From Lentisphaeria bacterium UBA2565 (lineage in GTDB: Bacteria; Verrucomicrobiota; Lentisphaeria; UBA2565): a stretch of 47,796 bases of DNA. Within the stretch, counting starts at the first letter, position 1. Every line of letters begins with the position of its first letter. Shown here piece after piece: positions 5,334 through 46,197 of the stretch. A model generated the notes under the pieces. It saw nothing but the letters and a program-made list of their open reading frames with translations. It was not told the DNA's origin and did no database searches. The position numbers were made by a program, and so were the translations under genes. The DNA lies in the NCBI GenBank assembly GCA_002340265.1, contig DDLT01000235.1, positions 1 to 47,796 on the forward strand, given 5' to 3'.

Positions 5334-5345
5334 GACAGTTGTTTT

Positions 5346-5431
5346 TTTTGGATTGCGGGGAGGATTGCCGCTTTCTGAGAATCGTCAGTTTGTATTCGAT
5401 TAGCCTCACGCAGAGACGCTGAGTCGCAGTG
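5346..5431 (+). repeat. hairpin-containing intergenic repeat, copy A
   Basis: 5361-5411 is identical over 51 nt to 8640-8690. Flanking similarity extends to about 85 nt. It contains the gcgg..ccgc hairpin followed by tttctgagaatcgtcag. Confidence 0.85.
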
Positions 5432-7284: not shown

Positions 7285-7767
7285 ATGAATTTAGATCAGA
7301 TAGAACATAAAGAGAATCTCTACGTTTATTTTGCTGCGGATGCGCTGAAGTTACATACAGGTGAGTCTCCCAACCTTGAGGGACTTCTATTTCTTCTAAC
7401 TACTGGCGATGTCAGCCAAAAAATAAAGCTAAAAGATCAATTCCTTGCCTCGTCTATGGCCTCATATTGGAAAAGTGAATTAGAACACTTTCAAGTCAGT
7501 TACGATATGTGGCTAGACTCCTTTGATATTTCGCTTTCCAAATACCAGAAAAGTAAATTGAACCATCTTGATGCAGTTAAAAGCATGAGGATTGACAAAG
7601 CCAAGAAAGAGGAACTTATCTACCTACTATTTAATCTAAACTTAGTTCGAAATAATGAAGTTCCCATCTTAAATCATCCCAAAAAATTAGTTAAGGCCTT
7701 TCTGAATGATTCCAAAAAAGAAATTGCCAAACTACAACATGAAACTTTGGAGCTATTGAATTCATGA
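7285..7767 (+). CDS. hypothetical protein translationally coupled to Fic
   Basis: 160 aa. The stop overlaps the fic ATG (ATGA at 7764-7767). No recognisable family. Contains SPNLEG, which fits the [ST]xxxE[GN] pattern. Confidence 0.65.
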   Translation: MNLDQIEHKENLYVYFAADALKLHTGESPNLEGLLFLLTTGDVSQKIKLKDQFLASSMASYWKSELEHFQVSYDMWLDSFDISLSKYQKSKLNHLDAVKSMRIDKAKKEELIYLLFNLNLVRNNEVPILNHPKKLVKAFLNDSKKEIAKLQHETLELLNS

Positions 7768-8543
7768 AGTTTTTGGAGAAATACCCCAAGGACGTCAGAA
7801 CTGCTATCTTTGACGAAATTAAGCTGAAATGGACATTTCACTCGACTGGTTTGGAGGGCAATACCCTTACTTTAGGAGAGACCAAAGATGTAATTGCCGG
7901 AATGACTATTTCCGGGCATAGTTTGGTGGAACATAAAGAAGTTTATGAGCACGTACGGGCGATTGATCTTGTTAGCGAACTTCTTGATCAAGGTGGAAAA
8001 ATATCTCTCGACTACTTAAACCGACTCAATCATGCGGTTATGGATAAATTGACTGTCGATGTGATGGCACCTGTAGGTGAACTGAAATGTCAGGACAATG
8101 GTTGTCAGGTTTTTGTTGACGGTAGGCTTAAATGGATTCAATATTCACCAGTTGAGGTTACCGAACCTTTAATGAGAAAATGGATAAAGTTGTTCAATGG
8201 GGCAAATGTAAACTCATTTGATGACGCTATAAAACTGTTCGCTCAATTACACATAAGCTTTACTTCCATTCACCCTTATGCCGATGGTAATGGACGAATG
8301 GCTCGACTCCTTTCAAATATACCAGTTTTACTTGCTGGCTACCCACCTATCATTTTAAGCAGGGAAAACAAAGAGGAATATATTAGCATTCTTTCTCAAT
8401 ACTGCCGCAATGGCGGAATTCCCAATCATACGAATGATGAATTGGTAATGCTTGGCGAAGAGTTTGATAAGTTTGAGATTTTTGTAAAAAAAGAGTCTCA
8501 AGCGGTTTACGAGCTTCTATCTAAATACGAAAAACCGCAGTAA
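7764..8543 (+). CDS. Fic/Fido domain protein (putative AMPylase), class II-like
   Basis: Fic active-site motif HPYADGNGRMAR (HxFx[DE]GNGRxxR with F to Y). N-terminal HSTGLEGNTLTL matches the inhibitory [ST]xxxE[GN] helix. 259 aa. Confidence 0.9.
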   Translation: MKFLEKYPKDVRTAIFDEIKLKWTFHSTGLEGNTLTLGETKDVIAGMTISGHSLVEHKEVYEHVRAIDLVSELLDQGGKISLDYLNRLNHAVMDKLTVDVMAPVGELKCQDNGCQVFVDGRLKWIQYSPVEVTEPLMRKWIKLFNGANVNSFDDAIKLFAQLHISFTSIHPYADGNGRMARLLSNIPVLLAGYPPIILSRENKEEYISILSQYCRNGGIPNHTNDELVMLGEEFDKFEIFVKKESQAVYELLSKYEKPQ

Positions 8544-8561
8544 CTGTCTCTTTTGGCGGAA

Positions 8562-8754
8562 TTATGAAGTGCGGTGAGAATTGCCGCTTTCAAAACCGCA
8601 GATTAGGCAGATGGAGCAAATGTTTTATGGAGTGCGGCGAGGATTGCCGCTTTCTGAGAATCGTCAGTTTGTATTCGATTAGCCTCACGCTGAGTACGCA
8701 GGGGATGAATTTTATGTCGTGAAGCTTTGGAGTGCTGTGAGCATCACAGCTTTC
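8562..8754 (+). repeat. three tandem hairpin-core repeats including copy B of the long repeat
   Basis: Cores are at 8562-8591 (ttatgaagtgcggtgagaattgccgctttc), 8625-8654 (ttatggagtgcggcgaggattgccgctttc) and 8725-8754 (ctttggagtgctgtgagcatcacagctttc). 8640-8690 is identical to 5361-5411. Confidence 0.8.
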
Positions 8755-8777
8755 GGATATTTGGAATAAAACTAAAA

Positions 8778-8796
8778 AGCGGCGATTCTCGCCGCT
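8778..8796 (-). terminator. intrinsic terminator for the 8844-9473 gene
   Basis: agcggcga-ttc-tcgccgct forms an 8-bp GC-rich stem. On the minus strand it is followed by tttttagtttt. Confidence 0.6.
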
Positions 8797-8843
8797 TTCT
8801 GATTGTTCATGCAATAGCGATGACTCTCACTGTGCACCGAAAG

Positions 8844-9473
8844 TTATTTTGTTTCAATAACCCAAAACATTAATTTAACTTTTAAACCGAAAGCTTCTCC
8901 TGCATCAATTACACCAGGTGTTATAGATTCCTTTTCGAAATGTTCCTCTAATTCCCCACTAATGTCATTTATAACTTCTTCTATATTATTGCCCGCTGTA
9001 CGATTAGCAATTGAAGGATATTTGATCTGTGGTGGATACGGCGATTCTACTTCATCTTCTATATGGGTTGCTAATAAAATGTTATAGTTAGCAATTTCAT
9101 TGCCAATAATTTCCATACTACTTGAATCAACTTTAAGAGCATCTATATACTGATTTGTTCCTTTCTCTAAATTAAAATCTCCTGTGTACATTGCTTTTAG
9201 TTCGATTAAGGCTTTTGGATTAGTATTGTCTATCCAAGAGTAAGCCTTGGTATTTCCCTTAAGATCTTTACTTTTATCTTCAAGTAAAGCTATATCTACA
9301 CGCTTCCATTCGCGTGCCACAATTTCCTTGCAGCTTGGATTTGAGTGCAACTTATATGCCAATTTGTCACGAACTGGCATTTCCACCTTTGAAGTTAAAG
9401 CCAAGTAGGCTAATTCATTTTGGAGAAAGTCACTTCCTATAGCATTCAACGCATCAATTATTAATTTCATCAT
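8844..9473 (-). CDS. hypothetical protein, possible PD-(D/E)xK nuclease fold
   Basis: The ORF track starts at 9533, but GGGAGG plus a 6-nt spacer precedes the ATG at 9473 (MMKLIIDAL...). The pattern RVDIALLED ... ALIELKAMY (D ... ExK on predicted strands) fits a restriction-endonuclease-like core. The function call is tentative. Confidence 0.6.
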   Translation of the reverse strand: MMKLIIDALNAIGSDFLQNELAYLALTSKVEMPVRDKLAYKLHSNPSCKEIVAREWKRVDIALLEDKSKDLKGNTKAYSWIDNTNPKALIELKAMYTGDFNLEKGTNQYIDALKVDSSSMEIIGNEIANYNILLATHIEDEVESPYPPQIKYPSIANRTAGNNIEEVINDISGELEEHFEKESITPGVIDAGEAFGLKVKLMFWVIETK

Positions 9474-9578
9474 TGTCTTCCTCCCTAGTTTTGTCGTTTC
9501 GATTCTTTTTATTTTATGATTAATCTTTCTCAAAGATGATTATGGAACAAGTTCATGGCAAATTTATGGTATATCTTT

Positions 9579-11858
9579 TTACTTTTCTACCGATTTAAAA
9601 ATGAGCATGGTTGAAACATCATTCTTTAAATCTAAGGTGAAACCAGTGTTGGATCCATTTTTTAGTTCTAGTTCCCAAACAAAAAATTTGAACCCGCTAC
9701 GCTCGCGGGAGAATAAAAGATTTGTTTTGGTGAACCCAAGTTTTATTGCTCGCTCTTCTACATTCTTCCGACGCTTGTTTTCACCTATCGCCATATAAAT
9801 CACACCAGGCTTGATAACTGAAATTTTAAGTTCTGTTGGTGATTTTTTTAGATTCCAAGATTGCGGAGTAAAAGTTAACCCATCTAGCTCTTTAGGGATG
9901 TGGGATAATTTTGCTGCTGCATCATCCATAAGAGAGGAGACACCATTTTTAAGAATATCTGTTACTAATGTTTTATCTTTATCTTTGACCTTAACCTCTG
10001 CAAACTTAATTGTTTGCTTGAAGATAATCAGCATGTTAGAACTAATTTCAAGGTCGAAACGGTCTTTTACATTTGCTTGATATATGTTAAATAAGACGCT
10101 ACTACTTTTCCCGCCCTGTCGATTACAAGTTAAGTCGCTAAGAGTAAATCCGCGTTTTGTTAACGTTTTTAAATAGCTGTTTGTATCCCATTCAGGCATC
10201 GCTATATACATAACCCCCGGCTTTGACACTCGCGCTTTTATGGATATCTTTGATCCATTCATTACACCTTTCGTAAAACTCATTCCTTCTAACTGTGTTG
10301 GAATATTAAATAGTGTGTAACCTCTATTTGTAAGAGCCCTTTCTCCATTTTTAAATGTGCCTAGATTAATTGAACCACTGGACTGTAAATCTATAGATGC
10401 TGGTTCTGTGTCCTTGAATTGTTCATCTTTTTCTTTGATGCTATTCTCTTCTTTCTCTCTAAGCTTAAGAGTTTCTTCGCTAGTTTTACTCTCTTTGTTT
10501 TGTAAAATAACTCTAAAGCTAAACTTAGAACCATAGCCATGATCTCGTGTTGTATGCCAACCTTTCCTAGGGGTGGAGCCGCAGTTTGAAGGGGTGGAGC
10601 CGGGAAAACCTTTCACCATTACTTTTACCCTAGTTTTAATAATTTGCCCTGATGCATTTTTTACAAACTCTTTGCCAATAGGGTTTATCTTACTGACTTC
10701 ATTAAAGTCATAAGCAAAGTCACGACATAGTTCCCCAGCGTTTTCTAAGATTTCGTAAATTCCCCACGGGTTTGGTGGGTATGATTTTACTGGTTGTGTT
10801 GGACCAGTTACACCTCGTACTTTACCCTCTCTACCAGCTCGTGCCATATATTCCCATTGTGCGGCAGTCGGTAAGGTCACTTCCATTGATGAATCTATTT
10901 TATTTCTTTCAATTAACTGTTCTGTTAATTTCTTACAAAAGTCCATAGCATTGTGCCAACTGGGGCCAATGACAGGTCGCAAGTCCCCTTTTTCTTTTGA
11001 AGGGTTTTTCTGCATAATAGTTTCATACTGTTTTTGTGTGACCTCAGTTTCTCCAACCCAGAAATCATCGGTTAGTGTGACTTTATGAAGAGGTATAGAA
11101 GTGCCAACACCCCCGCGCATGAACGATCCCGGTTTGATATGAATCAGCTTCAGCTCCACATCATCGGCCAATTTGAGCGTTTTATAAATGATTTCTCTAT
11201 CTGTTGTAGAGGGCTGTTTCCCATCTTCTGAGATTGCCACACTATTCGAGCTTGCTAACGATTCTGTATTTATCATAGAGAACTCACCGATTTTGTCGAA
11301 ATTGTTTTCATCGGTTAAATAGTTTTTTAATTCCAATGCCTCTTTAATTTTCCCTTTTTGGGTAAGTTCGGTTTTTTTCTTATTTACTGCTTTAATGAAA
11401 TCCTCTTTTACTTTATCAAAAGTTGAACCATTCTTTTTATTCAAGGCTTTGATATTCTCTTTGAATTTTGTTTGGATTTTCAGGAACGTATTGTTTTTGC
11501 TGGTGCTACCAATTGGCTTCTGGGTGTCGTAGATTCCATTGACCAATTCTCGTGCGTTGGATATCACTTGCTTGACCTCCATCATTGTCTCAAGATCACC
11601 GGCTTTTTGGGCAGACTGGTAAACCTTTTTCAATGCTGAAACATACGACTTTATATGCCTCTTTAGTTCTAGCTCATACTTGCCTTGAAGTGAATTCGTA
11701 ATACCTTCAAACTTACTTTCCATTTTAACTAGTTCACTATTTAGCTCGTCTGCACTTGCATAATGGCAAACCACTGTCAGTAAAAATAGCAGAGTGTAAG
11801 CAACTTTCACCACACTATCTAATGCGAACTTATGGACGAAATTTATCAAAATTTTCAT
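9579..11858 (-). CDS. exported multidomain protein: coiled-coil + FGE-sulfatase (SUMF1/DUF323) fold + two C-terminal repeat domains
   Basis: 759 aa with a hydrophobic N-terminus. FGE-fold blocks: FWVGETEVTQKQYE, GPSWHNAMDFCKKLT, LPTAAQWEYMARAG, NPWGIYEILENAGELC, FSFRVIL. No CxxxxC catalytic pair in the C-terminal part of the domain. Confidence 0.85.
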   Translation of the reverse strand: MKILINFVHKFALDSVVKVAYTLLFLLTVVCHYASADELNSELVKMESKFEGITNSLQGKYELELKRHIKSYVSALKKVYQSAQKAGDLETMMEVKQVISNARELVNGIYDTQKPIGSTSKNNTFLKIQTKFKENIKALNKKNGSTFDKVKEDFIKAVNKKKTELTQKGKIKEALELKNYLTDENNFDKIGEFSMINTESLASSNSVAISEDGKQPSTTDREIIYKTLKLADDVELKLIHIKPGSFMRGGVGTSIPLHKVTLTDDFWVGETEVTQKQYETIMQKNPSKEKGDLRPVIGPSWHNAMDFCKKLTEQLIERNKIDSSMEVTLPTAAQWEYMARAGREGKVRGVTGPTQPVKSYPPNPWGIYEILENAGELCRDFAYDFNEVSKINPIGKEFVKNASGQIIKTRVKVMVKGFPGSTPSNCGSTPRKGWHTTRDHGYGSKFSFRVILQNKESKTSEETLKLREKEENSIKEKDEQFKDTEPASIDLQSSGSINLGTFKNGERALTNRGYTLFNIPTQLEGMSFTKGVMNGSKISIKARVSKPGVMYIAMPEWDTNSYLKTLTKRGFTLSDLTCNRQGGKSSSVLFNIYQANVKDRFDLEISSNMLIIFKQTIKFAEVKVKDKDKTLVTDILKNGVSSLMDDAAAKLSHIPKELDGLTFTPQSWNLKKSPTELKISVIKPGVIYMAIGENKRRKNVEERAIKLGFTKTNLLFSRERSGFKFFVWELELKNGSNTGFTLDLKNDVSTMLIFKSVEK

Positions 11859-12370
11859 GGTATGCCTCGTTATCTTTTGTTTTATGGAAGCTCCAAAGTA
11901 AAAAAGGGCAAATTTTTCATGTTAATTTACGAACTAAACTACCACATTCCATGAAGAGGCAACTTGGAGAGTATGTCCAAAGCACACCTGTATTATGCCG
12001 TGCATCTCTTGTATAAAAGTGGAAGTTTTGTCGTAGGAAATGAGCACTCAAAATGAGTAATAAATTGTAATTGACCTATTTTTTACGTTAAATGTTTATT
12101 AATCAGATAAACATAAACCTTTGTGGTTTGGCTAAATAGAACATGTTAAAAAGGTAACCATAATTGCTAAAATATCTTGCTGTAAACTCAAAGTTTCTGC
12201 AATTATATGTATTTATAAGTCGCAAGTATAAGACAGTATACTGTGTTCCTTGAGGTATAAGTCTCCTCTGTTAAGCTGTGTTGGTAGTGTAGGATGCAAC
12301 TACCTTTGAGCAACAATTTAACAATCGTTCAACTATACTGTTAATATAAACTTTTGATAGTCTGTTTGAA

Positions 12371-12517
12371 GTTGAGGGAAGTCTGAATGGAGTTGAGGGA
12401 AGTCTGACGGGAATTGAGGGAAGTCTGACGGGAATTGAGGGAAGTCTGACGGGAATTGAGGGAAGTCTGACGGGAGTTGAGGGAAGTGTGAATGGAGTTG
12501 AGGAAAGTCTGAATGAA
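12371..12517 (+). repeat. 7 x 21-bp perfect-phase tandem repeat (iteron-like / operator array)
   Basis: Units begin at 12371, 12392, 12413, 12434, 12455, 12476 and 12497. Consensus is RTTGAGGGAAGTCTGAMKGGA. The three central units are identical (ATTGAGGGAAGTCTGACGGGA) and the outer units diverge. Confidence 0.95.
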
Positions 12518-12714
12518 TGTGAGAAATGATATTTTTACCTTTCTTAATACTCACGTCACTAAAATAGATCAAGATTGGGCAATTTAGGAAATATGTCTGG
12601 CAAAAATTTCTTGACGCGTTAGAATACGTTAGCCGAAAAGTTTGAAGATAGCATGCTTTAAACTGGTCGGGGTATTCAACAAAAAAGTAAAAAAACAAAG
12701 AAAGGGTCAAACTT

Positions 12715-13371
12715 ATGGCAACAATTAGAAAAGGGGAGGCTGAAACTCTCGAACGGGCACGTGTCGCTTTAAACAATGCAACGCAACAACCAGAAATTGC
12801 CGCTGCGTTGGATAAAGAGGGGTATACTGCTGAAGTCATTGCCGAAGGAATTGCAGTATTGCAAGAAACTTTAACTACTTATAACCAAAATAGAGTAGAG
12901 CATGATGAAAAGTCTGCGGCTTATGCGTTGTTTACTGCTAAAAAAGAGTCAGTGATTAAAGCTTATCGAAAAGATAGAAAGAAGGCAAAGGTGGTTTTTC
13001 ACCATGATCATGTTGCAGGAGATAAGTTGGGGATTTTAAAATCTGTACCAGGTTCTTTTGTTGGTTGGCTTGAGCAGGTGAAGAGGTTTTATACATCAGC
13101 TTTGGCAGATGCAGATATACAAACTGCTCTTGGTAGACTGAAAATTACAAGTGATACCCTCACCGCAACAAACACTCTTATTGCTGAATTGGAGGATGCA
13201 CGTGCGGCATATCTTCGTGAGCGAGGAGAATCGCAGGATGCTGTAAAGGTGAAAGATGCGGCATTCCAGAGACTTGATGAGTGGATGAGTGATTTTTATG
13301 TGGTGGCTCGAATTGCCTTGGAGGATCATCCTCAACTATTGGAAGCGTTAGACAAGAGTGTGAAGAGTTAG
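12715..13371 (+). CDS. hypothetical all-helical protein
   Basis: 218 aa with no family recognised. It is followed by a clear terminator. The start sits about 200 bp downstream of the repeat array. Confidence 0.7.
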   Translation: MATIRKGEAETLERARVALNNATQQPEIAAALDKEGYTAEVIAEGIAVLQETLTTYNQNRVEHDEKSAAYALFTAKKESVIKAYRKDRKKAKVVFHHDHVAGDKLGILKSVPGSFVGWLEQVKRFYTSALADADIQTALGRLKITSDTLTATNTLIAELEDARAAYLRERGESQDAVKVKDAAFQRLDEWMSDFYVVARIALEDHPQLLEALDKSVKS

Positions 13372-13387
13372 CAAGGTTAACTTTTGA

Positions 13388-13416
13388 AGCCGGGAATTTA
13401 GTTCTCGGCTTTTTTA
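13388..13416 (+). terminator. rho-independent terminator
   Basis: agccgggaa-tttag-ttctcggct stem followed by tttttatt. Confidence 0.7.
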
Positions 13417-13511
13417 TTGGTTGTAAAAGGTGAAAAAATCTTTAGTTTGAATGTGGGTGAATGTTTTCTATGAATTACATTTGAACAAATCTGTTTAACT
13501 GACGCAAACTG

Positions 13512-14357
13512 ATGATAAAAGTGAGAAAAATAATGAGGAATAAGATGTGGTGGTTTTTGTTTCGTGTGGTTGTGCTGTTTTGTATTCTTTTGCCGATTGC
13601 AACGGTTTTTGCTCAGAAGAGTATGGTGTTTATTCCTTCTAAAAAGATGGGTTATACGCCGAAGATTATCGGGATTGATTTTAAAGAGTTGACGATTGGA
13701 ACTAATAAGTTGAACTGCTGGTGGATTCCTGCTAAAGCGGAAAAGGTTAAGGAAAATGTCAAAACGGTGATTTTTTGTCATGGAAACGCGGGGAATATCT
13801 CGAATCGTCTCGATACTGTCAATTTTTACCATAATGTGATGGACTGTAATTTGATGATTTTTGATTATAGCGGCTACGGCAAGTCGGGTGGAAAGGTCGG
13901 AGAGGAGGCTTGTTACAAGGACTCTCAGGAGGTGTATGACTACGTGGTTAAGAGTTTGAACATTGATCCGAAGAATATTCTCATTCATGGACGTTCGCTG
14001 GGCGGTGCGGTTGCGGTGGATTTGGTGGTCAACAAGAAGTGTGCGGGGCTGGTGATGGAGTCGACTTTTACATCGGTGCCGGATATGGCGGATGATATGG
14101 TGCCGATTTTTCCAATTCAGTGGTTTGTGAGTATTGATTTTGATAGCCTTGATAAGGTTGATAAGTTGAAAGTCCCAGTTTTGCTGATTCATAGCAAGGG
14201 GGATGAGGTGATTCCGTATAAAATGGGTGAGGCTCTTTTTAAGAAGGCGAAGAAGCCTAAGTTCTGGCTGGAAATTTCAGGAGATCACAACAGCGGGTGG
14301 ATTGAATCACAAAAAGTTTATAGTAAGGGAATGAAAGATTTTTTTGAGGCTTTATAG
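13512..14357 (+). CDS. alpha/beta hydrolase (BEM46/ABHD13-like), N-terminal membrane anchor
   Basis: FCHGNAGNI oxyanion region, nucleophile elbow HGRSLGG, late D and H (HSKGDEVIP, SGDHN). Several in-frame Met starts lie between 13512 and 13545. Confidence 0.85.
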   Translation: MIKVRKIMRNKMWWFLFRVVVLFCILLPIATVFAQKSMVFIPSKKMGYTPKIIGIDFKELTIGTNKLNCWWIPAKAEKVKENVKTVIFCHGNAGNISNRLDTVNFYHNVMDCNLMIFDYSGYGKSGGKVGEEACYKDSQEVYDYVVKSLNIDPKNILIHGRSLGGAVAVDLVVNKKCAGLVMESTFTSVPDMADDMVPIFPIQWFVSIDFDSLDKVDKLKVPVLLIHSKGDEVIPYKMGEALFKKAKKPKFWLEISGDHNSGWIESQKVYSKGMKDFFEAL

Positions 14358-14476
14358 TACCGCGCATATCAGCAAGCTCACACAGTCTTTTTTTAGAAAA
14401 AATAGGCTGTTTTTGTATATTTTATTGAAGCGCAGATTGCTGGTTACTTTCTTTAGAATAAACACAGGAGTAAACT

Positions 14477-15187
14477 GTGATAAAAATTTCTGATTGGTAT
14501 AAAGATTTTGCGGATGTGACTTTCCCGACTGTTTTTGTACGTTTGACTGACGCTGAGAAAGAGGCGTTGGTGAATAATAGCGAAGGTGAGGCGAAAGATC
14601 GTTTGTGGAATCGTCTGACTAACGCGCTTAATTCGATTCACGGTGGTGCGGTGATTAATGCGGATTGTTGTGCGCCGACTGATAGTAAGGCGTTTTGCCG
14701 TCGTCGAATCGTTCATACTCCAATCTCTTCCTGGAAGCAGTTGACTACGAGTGAAAAGGTGATTTCAGCGTTGAAGAGCGGTGAAACGGATACGTTGGCT
14801 TTAAGACCTTACCGCAGAATGGATCGTTCGCGTGAGTTCCGTCTTTTTGTGAAAAATGGCGAGTTGATTGCGGCTTCTCAGTATGATTTGAAGAAGAACT
14901 ACCCGCGTCTTGCGAAAAGACAGGATGAAATCTGGAGTGCGCTTAATGCGTTTTTTGCGGATTCTGTTAAACCGTTTTTAAGTTTTACTGATGTGGTTAT
15001 CGATGTGTATATGTGCGGTAACGGTCAGTTTCTTTTAGTAGATTTCAACGATTGGGGAGGCGAAACGGCGCCGTTGCTTTTGAGAAGTTGGGATCAGAAT
15101 ATTGAAGAGTTTTTGCAGAGTCGCCACCCGTTGATGCTTTTGGCAGCTCCTGTGAAAATGAGTGGAGACGTTTCGGTCTCTTTTTAG
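14477..15187 (+). CDS. Cdc123/D123-family ATP-grasp-like protein
   Basis: GTG start with AGGAG 5 nt upstream. The blocks VFVRL, CCAPTDSKAF, LRPYRRMDRSREFRLFVKNGELIAASQYD and VVIDVYMCGNGQFLLVDFNDWG...LLLRSW follow the order and spacing of the eukaryotic D123 family. Confidence 0.65.
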   Translation: MIKISDWYKDFADVTFPTVFVRLTDAEKEALVNNSEGEAKDRLWNRLTNALNSIHGGAVINADCCAPTDSKAFCRRRIVHTPISSWKQLTTSEKVISALKSGETDTLALRPYRRMDRSREFRLFVKNGELIAASQYDLKKNYPRLAKRQDEIWSALNAFFADSVKPFLSFTDVVIDVYMCGNGQFLLVDFNDWGGETAPLLLRSWDQNIEEFLQSRHPLMLLAAPVKMSGDVSVSF

Positions 15188-15276
15188 TTGGTTTGTTGGT
15201 TAGGTAGATAGTTGTTTAGCTTTTTGCTATTGAACCTAAAACTGACTGTTTTTTATGAATTAGTTCTTAATATAAT

Positions 15277-17529
15277 GTGATAAATATGAATAAACCTGAA
15301 CTTTTGGCTCCTGCCGGTAATCTGGCTTGTGCGCTTGCGGCTTTTGATGCGGGTGCGGATGCAGTTTATGCGGGATTGGACCGTTTTAATGCGCGTGAGA
15401 AGAGTGATAACTTTACCGCGGAACAGATGGGAAGTCTGATTGCTTATGCGCATCGTCATGCCCGCAAGGTGTATTTGACTTTGAATACGCTGGTGAAAGA
15501 GTCTGAACTTAAAGATGTGGTTGAGATGCTGGCGGAAATTGCATATTTGCGTCCGGATGCGGTGATTGTTCAGGATCTTGGTGTGATTTACATTCTTCGA
15601 AACTATTTTCCTGAGTTGACTATTCATGCATCGACACAGGTTGGTATTCACAACTCTGTCGGTATTAATGTGGCCAAACAGCTTGGTGCAGAACGTGTGA
15701 TTCTGGAACGTCAGGTGACTTTGACTGAACTTGATGAGCTGATGTCGAAGACTTCACTTGAAGTTGAGGTTTTTGTTCATGGCGCGCTTTGTTGTAGTGT
15801 GTCGGGCGGTTGTACTTTCTCATCATGGCTCGGCGGCTGGAGTGGTAATCGCGGTAAATGTAAACAGCCTTGCCGTCGTCGTTACTTTAACGAAAAGGGT
15901 AACGGCTTTTTCTTTTCTCCTCAAGATCTTTATACGCTTGATTTGATTCCACAGTTTAAGAAAATGGGCGTGGCATCGCTTAAAATTGAAGGCCGTTTGA
16001 AGAAACCGGACTATGTGACCCATGTGGTGAATGCGTATCGTATGATGATTGATAATGACGACGGTTCTAAGATTGGAGAAACGTTGAAGGCGGCTCGTGA
16101 GGAGCTTGCTAAAACTTCGGGAAGAAAGTGGTCGTCCGGTTTTTACACTGAGAAATCTCTCAAAAGTTTGATTAACTACACTCAGATTGGTGTGGCTGGA
16201 AATATCTGCGGTGAGGTGACTGATGTGAATGATAAGGCGTTCGCGGTGGATGTATCGCGTCGTCTGCACATTGGTGATCGTATTCGAATTCAACCTCGTT
16301 CGGGCGACGAAGGTACGGCGATGACTATCACGAAGATGTTTGTTGATAACCGCAGTGTGAAGAAGGCGGTTAAGGGCGAGCGTTGTGTGATTGCGTTTGA
16401 TCAGGCTAATAAAGTGCCGCGTGGACATGTGTATAAGATTGGTGTTTCGACGGATTCGATGGAATCTCGTATGAAGGTGTTACCTGAATTTAAGCCGTTG
16501 ATTGATCTCGATGTGGAAGTTTATGCGAATGAAGTTCGTGTGTTTGTGAAAGATCACTTTATCGAATGGAGCCACAAAGAGGTTTTTGCCCGCGCTGAGA
16601 AACGTCCTTGTACTGAGGAAACTTTTGTTGATGGCTTCAAGGCAACAGGCGACAGCAGCTTCACTCTTGGTAACTGTTCTGTGAAGTTTAATGGTGAATA
16701 CTTTGTGCCTGGCAGCGTGTTGAAACAGATTCGTAAGGCGTTTTGGTCATGGCTGGAATCGGAACTTTCTGTGGATGATATTCGTCTTGGGCAGCCGGGT
16801 TTGATGAAGTTTTACGAAGATTATAAGAAGTTTGACCTTGATGAAGACGCGGAGTTGAATATTTACGATCCGTCTTACGAGCGTCAGACTGATGTGTACT
16901 TTACGAAGCCGGAAAGTCATCTTCCAAAGAAGAAGTTTGATGTGTGTCGTTCGATTTTCTCTTATGACAAGAAGACGTCAGAAGTGGCATTACCGTTTTT
17001 CTGCTGTGAAGACCGTTTGGATAAGTTGCAGTCGCATATTGATCGAGCTTATGAATCGGGGATTCGCCGTTTCCGTGTGACGTCACTTTATCAGTTTGAC
17101 TTGTTGGCAAAATATTCGGATCTGAAACTTGCAGTTTCACATCCGTTCCCGATTACGAACTCTCTAGCTGTTCGTGTTCTTGACGAAGACTTTGGTGTGG
17201 CGAAGGCTCAGGCTTGGGTTGAATTGGACAAACATTCTATTAACCGTTTGGTTATGGCTTCGCCGATTAAGATTGAGATTTACAGATATGGACGAATCCC
17301 ATTGTTGATTACGCGTGCAGATATTCCTTACGAAGGGCGCATTTCTGACAGTCGTAAGAATCAGTTTGTGATTGTGAAAGATCGTTTCAGCAAGTTCAAT
17401 TACTTGTATGCTAAAGAGGTGATGATTATTCCAAAGGTGAATAATAGCGAAAACTATTATGACCTGACGAATGCGTCTTGGGGAGCAAAGGATGTGTCGA
17501 CATTCAACTTCGAGAAGGATTTCGTGTAA
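15277..17529 (+). CDS. peptidase U32 family protein, two-domain form with Fe-S cysteine cluster
   Basis: 750 aa. The N-terminus KPELLAPAGNL...AGADAVY and VHGALCCSVSGGCTFSSWLGGWSGNRGKCKQPCRRRY are classical U32 blocks. The C-terminal half is a degenerate second U32-like domain. The more likely start is the ATG at 15286. Confidence 0.9.
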   Translation: MINMNKPELLAPAGNLACALAAFDAGADAVYAGLDRFNAREKSDNFTAEQMGSLIAYAHRHARKVYLTLNTLVKESELKDVVEMLAEIAYLRPDAVIVQDLGVIYILRNYFPELTIHASTQVGIHNSVGINVAKQLGAERVILERQVTLTELDELMSKTSLEVEVFVHGALCCSVSGGCTFSSWLGGWSGNRGKCKQPCRRRYFNEKGNGFFFSPQDLYTLDLIPQFKKMGVASLKIEGRLKKPDYVTHVVNAYRMMIDNDDGSKIGETLKAAREELAKTSGRKWSSGFYTEKSLKSLINYTQIGVAGNICGEVTDVNDKAFAVDVSRRLHIGDRIRIQPRSGDEGTAMTITKMFVDNRSVKKAVKGERCVIAFDQANKVPRGHVYKIGVSTDSMESRMKVLPEFKPLIDLDVEVYANEVRVFVKDHFIEWSHKEVFARAEKRPCTEETFVDGFKATGDSSFTLGNCSVKFNGEYFVPGSVLKQIRKAFWSWLESELSVDDIRLGQPGLMKFYEDYKKFDLDEDAELNIYDPSYERQTDVYFTKPESHLPKKKFDVCRSIFSYDKKTSEVALPFFCCEDRLDKLQSHIDRAYESGIRRFRVTSLYQFDLLAKYSDLKLAVSHPFPITNSLAVRVLDEDFGVAKAQAWVELDKHSINRLVMASPIKIEIYRYGRIPLLITRADIPYEGRISDSRKNQFVIVKDRFSKFNYLYAKEVMIIPKVNNSENYYDLTNASWGAKDVSTFNFEKDFV

Positions 17530-18536
17530 TGGTTCGTCGCTTTCTGCTGCTTGTTTTAGCTGCTTTTGTCATTTCATGTGATTCTTCGAAACCTTACCAG
17601 CGTATAGAGGAGTTACTTGGAACTTTCGTGTCCGTTACTTTTTACGGTGATCGCGACGCTGCAGAGTCCGCTTCGGATGAAGTGTTTGAGTTTATTCAGG
17701 AGCTTCACAATTGTGTGAATATTTATGATAAGAAATCCGAACTATCGCAGTTGAACGCATCGGCTTTTGAAAAACCTGTTGTGTGTTCTGAACTTCTTTG
17801 GGACATTTTGCAGGATGCACGCTTTGGTTATGATATCTCAGAAGGTTACTTTGATGTGACTAGCGGCCCGTTGATGAAGCTTTGGGGATTTCACCGAAAG
17901 CGTTCGACTTGGCCGACTGAAAAGGAAGTCGCTGAAGCATTGAACAAGGTTGGGCTTTCTAAAGTGGTGTTTGATGAGAAAGCACGTTCGGTTTTCTTCA
18001 AAGAAAAAGGGATGGTTCTGGATTTTGGAGGAATTGCCAAAGGTTATGCGTTGGATCGCTGCAAAGCAATTGCTGAAAAGTATGGCATCGAGGTTGGGCT
18101 GATTGATCTTGGCGGAAATGTATACTGCTTTCCAACGGCACCTGATGGGCGTGACTCATATAATGTAGGTATTCGTCATCCACGTACGCGTGGTTTGCAT
18201 GATGCATTGCAACTGACAGACAGTTTTGTGGCAACAAGCGGTGATTATGAACGTTTTGTAGAGATTGATGGTAAGCGTGTGACGCATATTGTTAATCCTA
18301 AAACAGGTTATCCTGTAGAAAAGGTGGCTTCGGTTTCTGTTGTGACCGAAAAAGGAGTCTATTCTGATATCTTTTCGACGGCTATTTTTGTCGGAGGGAA
18401 AGAAATTTCTGAAAAAGTTGTAAAAAAATACCCTTCAACTCAGTATATGATAGTGGGAGTTGACGGCGTTGACAATTTTTCATTTTCGTTTCACGGTGAT
18501 GTTTGGCATGAAAATTGGATAAAAGACGCACAGTAA
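17529..18536 (+). CDS. apbE: FAD:protein FMN transferase ApbE, lipoprotein
   Basis: The ATG overlaps the U32 stop (TAATG). Lipobox LAAFVISC, then GGIAKGYALD and TSGDYERF blocks. The ORF-track start at 17478 lies inside the U32 gene and is unlikely. Confidence 0.9.
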   Translation: MVRRFLLLVLAAFVISCDSSKPYQRIEELLGTFVSVTFYGDRDAAESASDEVFEFIQELHNCVNIYDKKSELSQLNASAFEKPVVCSELLWDILQDARFGYDISEGYFDVTSGPLMKLWGFHRKRSTWPTEKEVAEALNKVGLSKVVFDEKARSVFFKEKGMVLDFGGIAKGYALDRCKAIAEKYGIEVGLIDLGGNVYCFPTAPDGRDSYNVGIRHPRTRGLHDALQLTDSFVATSGDYERFVEIDGKRVTHIVNPKTGYPVEKVASVSVVTEKGVYSDIFSTAIFVGGKEISEKVVKKYPSTQYMIVGVDGVDNFSFSFHGDVWHENWIKDAQ

Positions 18537-18611
18537 AGCTTCTTTATATTTTCTTGGGGAATCAGATCGATAATTATAATGTTAATATTTAAGCGAATCA
18601 GTTAGATACAG

Positions 18612-19754
18612 ATGAAAAGTGATTTTAAAATTTATGAACCGATAATCAGAGGTTCACACGGAAAACTGAAGCTCAATCATGTAGATTGGAAACAGAGTGT
18701 GGTTGTTCGTACGCCGAATTGGCTTGGTGATGCTTTAATGACGCTTCCTGCACTTTATCAACTGCGTAAAGTGATTCCGAAGAATGTGACATTTGATGTG
18801 GTTTGTCCGAGAAAACTTGCCAGCTTTTGGCAATGTGTGCCTTGGGTTGATAATATCATCGCTTTTCCGGGGCGGCGTGTAAATAGTGAAATTCGTGAGC
18901 GTATGATTAAACCGTTGAACCCTGGTGTGGCTGTGATTATGCCAAATTCGTTTGGTTCAGCAAAAGATATGTATATGCCGGGAGTTGTTCCTGTTCGTCT
19001 TGGTAGAAAAGGTAATCTACGCGGTGCACTTCTAAGTCATCGTTTGCCACAGTTTGTCCGTAAAAAAGGTAAAGATACGCATCATCAGGTAAGTGAGTAT
19101 TTTGATCTTGTGGAACCTTTTGGACGTATCGAGCGTTCTGTGGAGTTTCCTTTTTTGAATGTTGATGTGATGTTTTCTGACTCTTTTGCCTTTGAAATGC
19201 AGTTTCTTCTTGATGTGGAAGAGGAGGGGCGCCCGATTCTTGTGATGGCTCCTGGCGCGGCTTTCGGGCCTGCAAAACAGTGGCCGATTAGCAATTATAC
19301 TGAAGTGGCTAAAAGCTGGACTGCCGGCGGTGGTGCGGTTCTTATTGTGGGAACTGAGTCTGAACGTGTTCTAGGAAATCTGATTGCTGAAAGTTGCGGT
19401 CATGTTTATAATCTGGCTGGTCAGACTGATTTGAAAGAGTTGATTGCAATTCTTCAGATGGCGGATGTCTGTTTGTGTAATGACAGCGGTGCAATGCACC
19501 TTGCAGCTGCCTGCGGTTCAAAAGGTGTGGCAATTTTCGGTTCAACCTCTCCTGTGGCAACTGGCCCGATTGGCGGAACTTGGGTGATTGCTCAGCATCA
19601 CATGCCATGTTCTCCTTGCCTTGAACGTGAATGCCCGTTGCAGGTTAATAAATACCGTTGCTTAACTTCTATTACATCAGACGACGTTTACGAAGCTCTT
19701 TGTGACCTGATGATTTATTCTGTTGGTGATAAGTCGTCTGAACCTTCTTTCTAA
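18612..19754 (+). CDS. waaF: GT9 ADP-heptose:LPS heptosyltransferase (type II-like)
   Basis: VVVRTPNWLGDALMTLPAL N-terminal motif, CNDSGAMHLAAA block, 380 aa. The subtype (WaaF versus WaaC or WaaQ) is not certain. Confidence 0.8.
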   Translation: MKSDFKIYEPIIRGSHGKLKLNHVDWKQSVVVRTPNWLGDALMTLPALYQLRKVIPKNVTFDVVCPRKLASFWQCVPWVDNIIAFPGRRVNSEIRERMIKPLNPGVAVIMPNSFGSAKDMYMPGVVPVRLGRKGNLRGALLSHRLPQFVRKKGKDTHHQVSEYFDLVEPFGRIERSVEFPFLNVDVMFSDSFAFEMQFLLDVEEEGRPILVMAPGAAFGPAKQWPISNYTEVAKSWTAGGGAVLIVGTESERVLGNLIAESCGHVYNLAGQTDLKELIAILQMADVCLCNDSGAMHLAAACGSKGVAIFGSTSPVATGPIGGTWVIAQHHMPCSPCLERECPLQVNKYRCLTSITSDDVYEALCDLMIYSVGDKSSEPSF

Positions 19755-34328: not shown

Positions 34329-35045
34329 TTATCTTTTTACGCGCTTTTGGGTCATACAAAAGGCACCGACGATAAAAACTAATAGGTTTATATAAAAGAG
34401 CAGTGGGTTGCGAAACCAGTTGCTCTTTTTCATTTTTGGGTAAACAAACTTCGTTCCGCTTACTCTCTCAATGAATTCTATGTCTGCGCTATACTTTTCC
34501 AGCGGTAGATGATTTGCTTTGTTTGGTAGAATAAAAGCGATAGATCCTTTTTTCTCACAGCTTAAGATTTTGTAGAATGCAGTTGGAATAGGAACTTTTG
34601 AATTTGCCAATTTAACTTCGTAGTCGAAAAGTGTTCCAGTGACGATTTTCAATTCAGTTTCATTCCAACCACGAATTTTTTCCTCTAAACTGAGCCAACT
34701 GCCTCTGTTAAACTCCGGTTTCTGCGGCGTAATATTAGTCATCAGAAATGTAGATTGAAGTGCTTCCTTAGAAAAGTTTAAATCGCCTGCTGGAACTAAA
34801 TGTCCTCTATCAAAACCACTTTTTGCATAGTCTTTTGACTCGTAAGAGTTAACCCGTTCGTCTGTAAGATATTTATTTCCTTTTCTTGAAAACTCTTTTT
34901 CTGAACTTATCAGACTGTGCTTTGTCCAAACTGTCGTTCTTAACTCATTATCCCAACCGACAGAATAGTAATCATTTTCGAGAACTGTCGGCTCTGCAAA
35001 AACGATTGATGTGATAACTGAAATAAATGTGAAAAGTTTAAGCAT
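34329..35045 (-). CDS. DNA/RNA non-specific endonuclease (NUC1/EndoG beta-beta-alpha-Me family), signal peptide plus C-terminal TM anchor
   Basis: FDRGHLVPAGD active-site motif followed by NITPQ and FNRG. N-terminal MLKLFTFISVITSIVFA. C-terminal LLFYINLLVFIVGAFCM followed by basic residues. Confidence 0.85.
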   Translation of the reverse strand: MLKLFTFISVITSIVFAEPTVLENDYYSVGWDNELRTTVWTKHSLISSEKEFSRKGNKYLTDERVNSYESKDYAKSGFDRGHLVPAGDLNFSKEALQSTFLMTNITPQKPEFNRGSWLSLEEKIRGWNETELKIVTGTLFDYEVKLANSKVPIPTAFYKILSCEKKGSIAFILPNKANHLPLEKYSADIEFIERVSGTKFVYPKMKKSNWFRNPLLFYINLLVFIVGAFCMTQKRVKR

Positions 35046-35093
35046 AATCTTTCTCCGTGCATTGAAGAAAGATAGCGTCTATAAAATCTTATA

Positions 35094-35124
35094 CAATAAA
35101 AAAGGTCGCCGTGGGTGGCGACCT
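35094..35124 (-). terminator. rho-independent terminator of the sulfatase 35134-36552
   Basis: aggtcgcc-gtgggt-ggcgacct forms a perfect 8-bp stem. The minus strand continues ttttttatt. Confidence 0.8.
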
Positions 35125-35133
35125 TGTGAACTT

Positions 35134-44391: not shown

Positions 44392-44499
44392 AAGCTTTTT
44401 CTCTTTTTAATTATTTAGTTCAATGTGTACTTACTTATACTCCATTAAGGAATTCCTCTTAACAGCAATATCAAGATATTCTTAGCGAATATTTACTGA

Positions 44500-44544
44500 A
44501 ATAAAAAAGGGGCTCACTTAGCGATGGTGACTAATTGAACCCCT
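44500..44544 (-). terminator. orphan intrinsic terminator inside the divergent sulfatase promoter region
   Basis: Minus strand reads aggggttcaattag-tcaccatcg-ctaagtgagcccct, a 14-bp stem with 1 mismatch and 1 G-U pair, followed by ttttttat. It lies about 110 nt upstream of the ATG at 44391. Confidence 0.65.
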
Positions 44545-44775
44545 TCAGGGAGAAGAAATATGTAAAGTTTTAACTTGTTTATCAGCTTAATTTGTTCATA
44601 TATACAATGCGAGATTTTGCCGTATAACAGATTTTTGTGAAAAAATGATAAAAAATGTTTATTTTGAATAAACTTTCTTCTTCAGTGATATAAAAATACT
44701 TTTTTTTTATGAAGTGGTGTCACTTTTGTGATGTTGAATTGTTTACATATATAGAGAACATAGAAAAAGGAGATA

Positions 44776-46131: not shown

Positions 46132-46197
46132 AACCTGAGTCCGTGATGGATTCAGGTAAAATATTTCCCCGAACTGCACCTAAATTAAGGAGAGAGT

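What the first reader, a model, noticed from the sequence alone, without database searches (positions are those of the whole stretch)
8844..11858. Two-gene operon: exported FGE-fold protein without the catalytic Cys pair, followed by a PD-(D/E)xK-like ORF
The 759-aa protein has an unmistakable FGE-sulfatase (SUMF1) fold signature. The segment where true formylglycine-generating enzymes carry CxxxxC reads KGFPGSTPSNCGSTPRKGW, with a single Cys, so it is probably a binding or other non-FGE paralog. It also has a long N-terminal coiled-coil.

Forty-five bp downstream is a 209-aa ORF with a strong SD. Its D...ExK pattern (RVDIALLED / ALIELKAMY) resembles restriction-endonuclease-fold nucleases.

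Pairing an apparently exported sensor-like protein with a cytoplasmic nuclease-like protein is not an arrangement I recognise.
Basis: partly seen in the sequence, partly recalled or inferred. Interest (0 to 1): 0.6.

Follow-up and report, generated by a model that had tools for sequence, protein, structure and literature searches.

The report
Unrelated neighbours: FGE-fold protein, solitary nuclease
Two adjacent genes, one for an exported non-enzymatic FGE-fold protein and one for a small restriction-endonuclease-like protein, are both real, but they appear to be chance neighbours rather than a functional pair.

Summary
Both ORFs exist on the minus strand: 11858..9579 (759 aa) and 9473..8844 (209 aa).

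**The 759-aa protein**
- It has a signal-peptide-like N-terminus and a Pfam FGE-sulfatase domain (E 1.6e-17) without the catalytic Cys pair. In this genome 8 of 9 FGE-domain paralogs lack that pair.
- It ends in two copies of a domain whose model matches the C-terminal accessory domain of GH2 and GH138 glycoside hydrolases (Z 13.3 and 11.6).
- It reads as a secreted binding protein, typical of this sulfatase-rich, coral-associated genome.

**The 209-aa protein**
- It belongs to a ~200-aa family with no Pfam entry. E20, D60 and E91 are invariant and K93 nearly so.
- The fold evidence is middling: the best match is R.SwaI at Z 7.7.
- Ten of 41 members give weak hits to the HsdR N-terminal family.

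**The pairing**
- Pairing is not supported. None of 50 loci from many phyla that carry the small gene encodes anything like the FGE protein, and no neighbour is conserved.
- About a third of those loci lie beside mobile, toxin-antitoxin or defence genes.
- The "45 bp" spacing is to a TTG. The ATG with the Shine-Dalgarno site lies 105 nt downstream of the stop.
- A crude test did not support the coiled-coil.

Interest is low.

The parts
9579..11858 (-). Gene for the 759-aa exported FGE-fold protein (P0079)
   Evidence: ORF listed and translated. Pfam PF03781 E 1.6e-17. The only relative covering more than the FGE domain is P0082 (81% identity, 620 aa).
11751..11858 (-). Signal-peptide-like N-terminus (aa 1-36, ...VCHYASA|DE)
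   Evidence: The hydropathy maximum of the whole protein is at aa 11-31, followed by an A-x-A-like site. This is a heuristic; no SignalP was run.
11187..11750 (-). K/E/S/N-rich, probably helical spacer (aa 37-224). The coiled-coil is not confirmed.
   Evidence: The heptad test was not significant: 33 of 200 shuffles reached the observed value. No Pfam match.
10449..11186 (-). FGE-sulfatase / C-type-lectin-like domain (aa ~225-470) without the catalytic Cys pair
   Evidence: Paralog alignment: RGGSFLCNDDYC in C168:32041-32958 against VKGFPGSTPSNC here.
9975..10376 (-). C-terminal domain, copy 1 (aa 495-628), like the accessory domain of GH2 and GH138 enzymes
   Evidence: AF2 pLDDT 84.5. VIA Z 13.3 to 6hpd_A 860-989 and 11.6 to 6hze_A 739-871, with the next row at 4.5. 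Foldseek TMq 0.69, E 2.3e-3.
9582..9974 (-). C-terminal domain, copy 2 (aa 629-759)
   Evidence: Internal duplication: 30% identity, E 9e-11 between the two copies.
9474..9578 (-). 105-nt AT-rich spacer between the two genes
   Evidence: Sequence read. The consensus scan found no minus-strand promoter-like or terminator-like site here.
9480..9485 (-). Shine-Dalgarno GGGAGG of the small gene
8844..9473 (-). Gene for the 209-aa PD-(D/E)xK-like protein (P0080). Codons: E20 9416-9414, D60 9296-9294, E91 9203-9201, K93 9197-9195.
8774..8800 (-). Terminator-like hairpin after the small gene (12-bp stem, then a T run)
8560..8830 (.). Dispersed short repeats in the convergent intergenic region
   Evidence: 14 further matches in the MAG, including a 77-nt copy at 5344-5419 of the window (alignment). 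Contigs break here and depth spikes.

Best explanation
These are two independent genes that happen to lie head-to-tail in a low-GC accessory stretch (about 5.4-12.7 kb) of a chromosome otherwise full of housekeeping and sulfatase genes.

**Gene 1** encodes an exported, non-catalytic protein. A signal-like N-terminus is followed by a K/E-rich spacer, then an FGE/C-type-lectin-fold domain that lacks the copper-binding Cys pair. It ends with two copies of a domain otherwise found at the C-terminus of GH2 and GH138 glycoside hydrolases and attached to BNR/sialidase-like proteins in related genomes. The inferred role is extracytoplasmic binding of a glycan or protein ligand, not sulfatase maturation.

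**Gene 2** encodes a cytoplasmic, solitary ~200-aa metal-dependent endonuclease of the PD-(D/E)xK superfamily. Its catalytic residues are E20, D60, E91 and K93, and it is distantly like the HsdR N-terminal nuclease domain. The family is scattered across phyla and on plasmids without any fixed partner gene. It was probably acquired horizontally, and it may act in defence (type IV-like restriction) or in mobile-element biology.

**Shown:** the domains, motifs, distribution and lack of synteny. **Inferred:** export, ligand binding, nuclease activity and horizontal acquisition.
For: **Gene 1**
- PF03781 E 1.6e-17.
- The best solved relatives by sequence are non-FGE members: T. denticola variable protein 1 (2y3c, E 6.3e-8) and PorK/GldK.
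- Nine PF03781 matches occur in the genome, and only 1 of the 9 has CxxxxC.
- Of 50,303 library hits, the 150 listed match only aa ~133-484, except P0082.
- The C-terminal domain model (pLDDT 84.5) gives Z 13.3 and 11.6 to the GH2 and GH138 C-terminal domains, with the next row at Z 4.5.
- Weak relatives of that domain (E 1.7e-5 to 3.8e-3) occur in 6 other genomes of 150 in the class. In 3 of those 6 ORFs the domain is fused to BNR_2.

**Gene 2**
- 78 homologues at E<=1e-3 among 213 candidates, none with Pfam domains.
- Invariant E20, D60 and E91, nearly invariant K93, plus T136, K151 and Y152.
- AF2 pLDDT 93.6 places D60 at the start of a strand and E91/K93 in the next long strand.
- The wide fold search gives R.SwaI at Z 7.7, followed by EcoRV, BglI, BamHI, OkrAI, MunI, BglII, Hjc, NucC, Card1, CdiA-CT, DUF820 and others at Z 4.7-6.2.
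- 10 of 41 members hit HSDR_N (best E 0.003) and 3 hit HSDR_N_2.
- hhalign lines RxD...P.aLiELK up with RRPD...PVAVLELK of an HsdR.

**No link between them**
- tblastn of P0079 found 0 hits in 50 loci (569,623 nt), all of which hold the small gene.
- No neighbour family is shared by more than 3 of 46 loci. The one 3-locus cluster is antisense ORFs over the family gene itself.
- No ORF of at least 35 aa within 900 nt is shared by more than 2 loci.
- None of 40 related genomes has the small gene.
- Small-gene GC is 0.340 against 0.409 for the genome, within the lowest ~6% of 630-nt windows.
Against: - The genes are on the same strand, 105 nt apart, with no terminator-like site between them and one after the second gene.
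- One contig from an RNA library spans 8721-10871, which covers the small gene, the gap and the 3' part of the FGE gene. Co-transcription is therefore possible. That library also covers the convergent Fic gene evenly, so it may simply hold DNA.
- The same order is kept in contigs of a run whose sequence differs by several percent (X8).
- The lineage is poorly sampled: only one genome of the same order among those searched. Conservation of the pair within the lineage could not be tested.
- Fold evidence for the nuclease is middling. Foldseek gave no PDB match at E<=1e-3. Z 7.7 is tied with IF3 C-terminal-domain matches to aa 86-209.
- Only 5 of 38 loci have PADLOC-type neighbours within two genes, so a defence role is weakly founded.
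Confidence: 0.7

Rival explanations
1. This is a lineage-specific operon. The small nuclease gene is transcribed from the FGE gene's promoter as a passenger (moron-like insertion), or it cooperates with the FGE protein in this lineage only.
For: Same strand, a 105-nt gap, no terminator-like site in the gap and a hairpin terminator after the second gene. An RNA-library contig bridges the gap. The order is kept in a diverged strain (X8).
Against: A contig across two genes shows no single transcript, and the library may hold DNA. The two products are predicted to be in different compartments. There is no synteny elsewhere.
Confidence: 0.2
2. This is a conflict module in which the Cys-less FGE-fold protein is an immunity protein or sensor and the PD-(D/E)xK protein is the toxin or effector. 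Models for this are the Tsi3-type T6SS immunity proteins and the STAND receptors with FGE-sulfatase sensor domains.
For: FGE-domain proteins without the catalytic cysteines act as T6SS immunity proteins (Lopez et al., bioRxiv 10.1101/2021.05.21.445229; abstract and section 7 read). FGE-sulfatase sensors occur in defence-associated STAND proteins (10.64898/2026.01.04.697583; one figure-legend passage seen). A Fic gene with PADLOC PDC-S04/SoFic matches lies next door.
Against: - The FGE protein has a signal-like N-terminus and glycoside-hydrolase-type accessory domains. The nuclease has no delivery or NTPase domain.
- Neither protein has a PADLOC match.
- None of 50 loci pairs the two families.
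- No T6SS-type Pfam family appeared among the 31 window ORFs scanned.
Confidence: 0.05
3. The FGE-fold protein is the variable target protein of a diversity-generating retroelement, and the divergent C-terminal part of its lectin-fold domain is the variable region.
For: The best solved relative by sequence is Treponema denticola variable protein 1 (2y3c, E 6.3e-8). That this protein is a DGR target is recalled, not from a call. The ligand-site segment is the most divergent among the 9 paralogs.
Against: No second copy (template repeat) of any part of the gene exists in the 3.32-Mb assembly apart from a 27-nt chance-level match. The only reverse-transcriptase matches are on two short other contigs. 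The assembly is 85.7% complete, so absence is not proven.
Confidence: 0.03

Closest known systems
Non-catalytic FGE-sulfatase (PF03781) domain proteins: T. denticola variable protein 1 (2y3c), PorK/GldK, Tsi3
   Same: The FGE/C-type-lectin-like domain is recognised by Pfam and by PDB sequence hits. The two active-site cysteines are absent, as reported for Tsi3 homologues.
   Different: The architecture is unique so far. A signal-like N-terminus, a ~190-aa K/E-rich spacer and two GH2/GH138-type accessory domains are found together only in one 81%-identical protein. The RGGSW-like motif is also degenerate here (VKGFPGS).
Formylglycine-generating enzyme (SUMF1 and bacterial FGE; e.g. 1y1e, 6muj)
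   Same: The same domain family. The alignment to solved FGEs covers aa 354-404 at E ~0.004-0.009.
   Different: The alignment stops before the catalytic segment and there is no CxxxxC. The genome has a separate paralog with RGGSFLCNDDYCAGYR (C168:32041-32958, 275 bits) that can serve the sulfatases.
PD-(D/E)xK nucleases: the HsdR N-terminal domain (PF04313, PF13588) and small type II enzymes such as R.SwaI
   Same: E...D...ExK on helix, strand and strand. HSDR_N hits in 10 of 41 members. Motif-level hhalign match to an HsdR. R.SwaI Z 7.7 over the whole length.
   Different: No member reaches any Pfam cut-off, and the window's own protein has no hit at E<=5. There is no helicase or methylase partner. 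A DNA methylase lies within two genes in 1 of the 38 genome loci scanned (L045) and in 1 of the 4 annotated plasmid records (Neptuniibacter). Extra invariant residues (K29, D36, R54, E55, T136, K151, Y152) define a family of its own.
C-terminal accessory domain of GH2 beta-glucuronidase (6hpd) and GH138 BP0997 (6hze)
   Same: The fold of the duplicated C-terminal domain: Z 13.3 (rmsd 2.3, 114 aligned) and Z 11.6 (rmsd 2.4, 116 aligned).
   Different: Here it is attached to an FGE-fold domain rather than a glycosidase. Sequence identity is 12-15%. The function of that domain is not known to me.

Membership tests
Formylglycine-generating enzyme (bona fide FGE) | FGE-sulfatase domain fold | tested here: met
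   PF03781 E 1.6e-17, above the cut-off. PDB FGE chains at E 0.004-0.009.
Formylglycine-generating enzyme (bona fide FGE) | Two active-site cysteines (CxxxxC) that bind copper | tested here: not met
   There is no CxxxxC. The single Cys426 aligns outside the pair seen in the genome's own FGE-like paralog. The requirement is taken from the text read.
PD-(D/E)xK nuclease superfamily | Conserved acidic/lysine catalytic motif D...(D/E)xK, often with a helix-1 Glu | tested here: met
   E20, D60 and E91 are invariant and K93 is at least 90% conserved in 41 sequences.
PD-(D/E)xK nuclease superfamily | Alpha-beta-beta-beta-alpha-beta core, with the motif residues on strands 2 and 3 | tested here: inconclusive
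   The model has H20-27/H31-44, E51-56, E59-64, E86-96, H103-123 and E128-138. The best match is R.SwaI at Z 7.7, and more than 20 of the 50 rows are restriction-fold entries. However, Z is below 8, it is tied with IF3-C-like matches, and Foldseek gave nothing at E<=1e-3. Model coordinates could not be inspected.
PD-(D/E)xK nuclease superfamily | Significant profile match to a member family | tested here: inconclusive
   HSDR_N hits in 10 of 41 members (best E 0.003) and HSDR_N_2 in 3 of 41, all below cut-off, with none for the window's protein. hhalign probability was 4.5% over 28 columns.
PD-(D/E)xK nuclease superfamily | Metal-dependent nuclease activity | not testable with these tools
   This needs an enzyme assay.
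Type II restriction-modification system | Cognate DNA methyltransferase gene adjacent | tested here: not met
   No DNA methylase was found among the 31 window ORFs scanned. Among the 148 flanking ORFs of 38 genome loci, only L045 has an N6_Mtase/Eco57I ORF. Of the 4 annotated plasmid contexts, one (Neptuniibacter) has an Eco57I-type methylase two genes away.
Known anti-phage defence systems (PADLOC-DB 2.0) | Match to a system protein model | tested here: not met
   No PADLOC family at E<=0.1 for either protein.
T6SS effector-immunity module with an FGE-like immunity protein (Tsi3 type) | Recurrent adjacency of the FGE-like gene with its effector, and T6SS genes nearby | tested here: not met
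   None of 50 loci pairs the families. No T6SS-type Pfam family was found in the window ORFs scanned. Presence of a T6SS elsewhere in the genome was not tested.
Diversity-generating retroelement target | Template repeat of the variable region and a nearby reverse transcriptase | tested here: not met
   No repeat of the gene exists in the assembly. RT matches are only on contigs C331 and C111. The assembly is 85.7% complete.

The most novel reading that the evidence does not exclude
In this poorly sampled lineage, the exported Cys-less FGE/lectin-fold protein and the cytoplasmic PD-(D/E)xK nuclease are a co-transcribed functional pair. An envelope-side binding protein would be coupled to an intracellular nuclease, an arrangement not described so far. 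A more modest novel reading is independent of the pair, and I put it at about 0.25. In that reading the small gene represents an unnamed family of solitary, HsdR-N-like nucleases that act as a single-gene, type IV-like restriction or defence function.
Probability: 0.05. Interest if true: 0.65.

Novelty: new member of a known kind. Interest (0 to 1): 0.2.

Why it matters
The result mostly clears away a false lead. Cys-less FGE-domain proteins are the rule in this genome (8 of 9 paralogs), and adjacency to a nuclease gene is not a system.

Two modest points remain:
- A ~200-aa PD-(D/E)xK-like family with strictly conserved catalytic residues has no Pfam, NCBIfam, PHROG or PADLOC model. It occurs in many bacterial phyla and in one archaeal-labelled MAG, and about a third of the loci examined lie beside mobile, toxin-antitoxin or defence genes. 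It is therefore a cheap candidate for a nuclease and phage-defence test.
- A domain known only from the C-termini of GH2 and GH138 enzymes is shown to travel with FGE-fold and BNR-type proteins in this bacterial class.

Tried and rejected
- **DGR target idea.** blastn of the whole gene against the assembly found only itself and one 27-nt match.
- **Closest relatives' context.** Two metagenome scans gave nothing: none with P0080, and only two weak partial hits (39% over 56 aa) with P0002. The contig of the 71%-identical homologue could therefore not be examined.
- **Phage records.** No tblastn match for the small protein. The BFVD fold search gave nothing at E<=1e-3.
- **Solved structures by sequence for the nuclease family profile.** Only a chance-level amidase hit, E 1.1.
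- **Fic link.** A Fic gene lies convergent to the small gene here and in L029. Only 1 of 50 loci shows this, and the similarity is limited to the Fic motif region (SoFic match). I rejected it as a pattern.
- **C-terminal domain homologues by word-index search.** Only the protein itself and a close fragment.
- **Rfam on 8400-12800.** No match at E<=0.1.
- **ESM Atlas.** The nearest named clusters for the small protein were MunI, PDDEXK_18 and AccI at 0.75-0.76. I used these as leads only. For the C-terminal half the Atlas returned only unnamed PVC-type clusters.
- **RNA-library contigs.** They could not show transcription or an operon.
Full report
**What is there.** The window is contig C126 of a 3.32-Mb, 343-contig assembly that is 85.7% complete. 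Its DNA recurs in coral metagenome runs. On the minus strand lie a 759-aa ORF (11858..9579) and, downstream, an ORF ending at 8844. The list gives the second ORF as 229 aa from a TTG at 9533. The sequence shows ATG-ATG at 9473/9470, preceded by GGGAGG at 9485-9480. Homologues start at that point, and the database representative of the identical protein is 208 aa. The gene is therefore 9473..8844 (209 aa), and the gap to the upstream stop is 105 nt, not 45. A hairpin with a T run follows at 8800-8774. No terminator-like or minus-strand promoter-like site was found in the gap.

**The large protein.**
- *FGE domain.* Pfam places an FGE-sulfatase domain at aa ~238-347, plus a second stretch (E 1.6e-17). 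Solved relatives by sequence are Treponema denticola variable protein 1 (E 6.3e-8), PorK/GldK, and at E ~0.007 true FGEs. The alignment to the true FGEs ends just before their catalytic segment.
- *Catalytic cysteines.* The genome has nine PF03781 matches. In a MAFFT alignment only one, C168:32041-32958 (275 bits), carries RGGSFLCNDDYCAGYR. The window's protein reads VKGFPGSTPSNCGSTPRKG there, and its single Cys does not fall on either catalytic position. FGE needs the two cysteines to hold copper (text read), so this protein is not an FGE. The same holds for 8 of the 9 paralogs, so the loss is ordinary here.
- *N-terminus.* It reads MKILINFVHKFALDSVVKVAYTLLFLLTVVCHYASA|DE, contains the hydropathy maximum of the protein, and looks like a Sec signal. 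No signal-peptide predictor was available.
- *Spacer.* The stretch aa 37-224 is K/E/S/N-rich with one proline. A crude heptad test did not separate it from shuffles: 33 of 200 reached the observed value. The coiled-coil is unconfirmed.
- *C-terminal duplication.* The C-terminal 265 aa are two copies of one domain (30% identity, E 9e-11).
- *Relatives.* An exhaustive HMMER search gave 50,303 hits. Among the 150 listed, only one protein (P0082, 81% identical, 620 aa) matches outside aa ~133-484. Word-index searches of the C-terminal part found only the protein itself and a close fragment. Six other genomes of 150 in the class have weak matches (E 1.7e-5 to 3.8e-3) inside large ORFs, and three of those six ORFs carry BNR_2 domains.
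- *C-terminal fold.* A model of copy 1 built on nine such segments (pLDDT 84.5) matches the C-terminal domains of a GH2 beta-glucuronidase (6hpd_A 860-989: Z 13.3, rmsd 2.3, 114 aligned) and of the GH138 enzyme BP0997 (Z 11.6). The next row is at Z 4.5. Foldseek agrees, with TMq 0.69 and 0.66 at E 2.3e-3 and 4.7e-3.
- *Reading.* The protein looks like an exported binding protein of the carbohydrate-active world. This fits a window that also holds five sulfatase genes.

**The small protein.**
- *Family.* It matches no Pfam, NCBIfam, PADLOC or PHROG model. It has 78 homologues at E<=1e-3 among 213 candidates, nearly all 185-230 aa and none with Pfam domains.
- *Conserved residues.* In 41 aligned members, E20 (NELAYLALTSK), D36, R54-E55, D60 (RxD), E91, T136, K151-Y152 and G192 are invariant, and K93 is nearly so.
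- *Model.* The AlphaFold model is confident (pLDDT 93.6). It puts E20 on a helix, D60 at the start of strand 59-64 and E91/K93 in strand 86-96. This is the classical layout of restriction-endonuclease-like nucleases; the topology is established knowledge, recalled.
- *Fold searches.* These are only middling. Foldseek found nothing at E<=1e-3 in the PDB. The search independent of Foldseek put R.SwaI first (Z 7.7, rmsd 4.2, 126 aligned). It was followed by many restriction-fold entries at Z 4.7-6.2, among them EcoRV, BglI, BamHI, OkrAI, MunI, BglII, Hjc, NucC, Card1, CdiA-CT, DUF820-type proteins and CinB/CidB. These were mixed with IF3-C-like and methyltransferase rows.
- *Profile evidence.* Scanned one by one, 10 of 41 members hit HSDR_N (best E 0.003) and 3 hit HSDR_N_2, all below cut-off, and the window's own protein hit nothing. 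hhalign aligned the family's RxD...P.aLiELK with RRPD...PVAVLELK of an HsdR from locus L005, at low probability (4.5%). The Atlas's nearest named clusters were all restriction-type, at lead-level scores.
- *Verdict.* Together this makes superfamily membership likely (about 0.8) but not proven.

**Is it a pair?**
- *Distribution.* The family was found at 46 loci in species-representative genomes. These include Alpha- and Gammaproteobacteria, Streptomyces and other Actinomycetota, Planctomycetaceae, Bacteroidota, Nitrospira and others, plus one MAG labelled Nanoarchaeia. It also occurs on 5 plasmid records, in no phage record, and in none of 40 genomes related to this one.
- *No shared neighbours.* Clustering ORFs of at least 80 aa within 4 kb gave no neighbour family in more than 3 of 46 loci. 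The one 3-locus cluster is antisense ORFs over the family gene itself. For ORFs of at least 35 aa within 900 nt, no cluster spans more than 2 loci.
- *No FGE neighbour.* tblastn with the FGE-fold protein found nothing (E<=0.01) in the 50 loci (569,623 nt), every one of which holds the small gene.
- *What the neighbours are.* I Pfam-scanned the two ORFs on each side in 38 loci, 148 ORFs in all. Eight loci were dropped because my ORF picker did not select the family gene there. None hit PF03781. Twelve of the 38 loci had mobile, toxin-antitoxin or restriction-type neighbours: integrases, transposases, a relaxase, AbiE, HsdR, Zeta, ParE, a Gp49-like protein, DddA-like/Imm1, Fic and Mrr with a type IIG enzyme. 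Five of the 38 had PADLOC matches at E<=1e-10. The rest were metabolic or unannotated. Plasmid contexts are equally varied.
- *Local setting.* The small gene has GC 0.340 against 0.409 for the genome. It sits in a low-GC stretch together with a 518-aa ORF and a 160-aa ORF that overlaps a Fic gene (PADLOC PDC-S04/SoFic matches). That stretch lies between housekeeping genes of higher GC.
- *Transcription.* A contig of a metatranscriptome library spans 8721-10871, and a diverged strain keeps the order. Neither shows a common transcript or a shared function.

**Verdict.** The non-FGE reading and the nuclease-like reading are supported, but the unrecognised arrangement is best explained as chance adjacency of two unrelated genes. 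FGE-fold proteins do serve as immunity proteins or sensors elsewhere, so I keep a small probability for a lineage-specific link. What is left is an unnamed, patchily distributed nuclease family and a travelling glycoside-hydrolase accessory domain. Both are new members of known kinds.

**Caveats.**
I did not verify the taxonomy.
- Supplementary files of the two preprints were not seen.

Noticed in passing
window 7285-8543 (+): A 160-aa ORF overlaps by 4 nt a 259-aa Fic-domain gene (Pfam Fic E 7e-12). The Fic gene has PADLOC matches to PDC-S04 (E 5e-27) and SoFic. This looks like a two-gene Fic module, convergent with the small nuclease gene.
   Followed up: partly
window 8623-8699 and 5344-5419: A 77-nt segment is repeated at 94% identity in the same orientation. 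The two copies bracket the 518-aa ORF and the Fic pair. This could be the ends of an inserted segment, or copies of an intergenic repeat.
   Followed up: partly
window ~8720-8757: A ~33-nt core is present at about a dozen other places in the MAG, several at contig ends. Contigs of four runs break here and depth spikes. It looks like a REP/MITE-like dispersed repeat.
   Followed up: partly
window 12370-12512: A 21-nt tandem repeat of 6.8 copies at 92% match lies in the 856-nt divergent intergenic region upstream of the FGE-fold gene. One partial copy lies elsewhere in the genome. Rfam gave no match.
   Followed up: partly
window 12000-19000: GC skew on the + strand is unusually high (0.17-0.33 per kb), beginning abruptly at ~12 kb where gene orientation switches to +.
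   Followed up: no
G000:C168:32041-33760: The one FGE paralog with the catalytic CxxxxC (359-aa frame) lies next to a second, Cys-less PF03781 gene on the same strand.
   Followed up: no
window 12715-13371 (+): A 218-aa protein matches NCBIfam 'PQLLE family protein' at E 1.5e-70. The family has no stated function.
   Followed up: no
window 34329-36552 and 41531-47640: Five sulfatase genes (Pfam Sulfatase + SGSH_C) and an Endonuclease_NS gene lie in the right half of the window.
   Followed up: no
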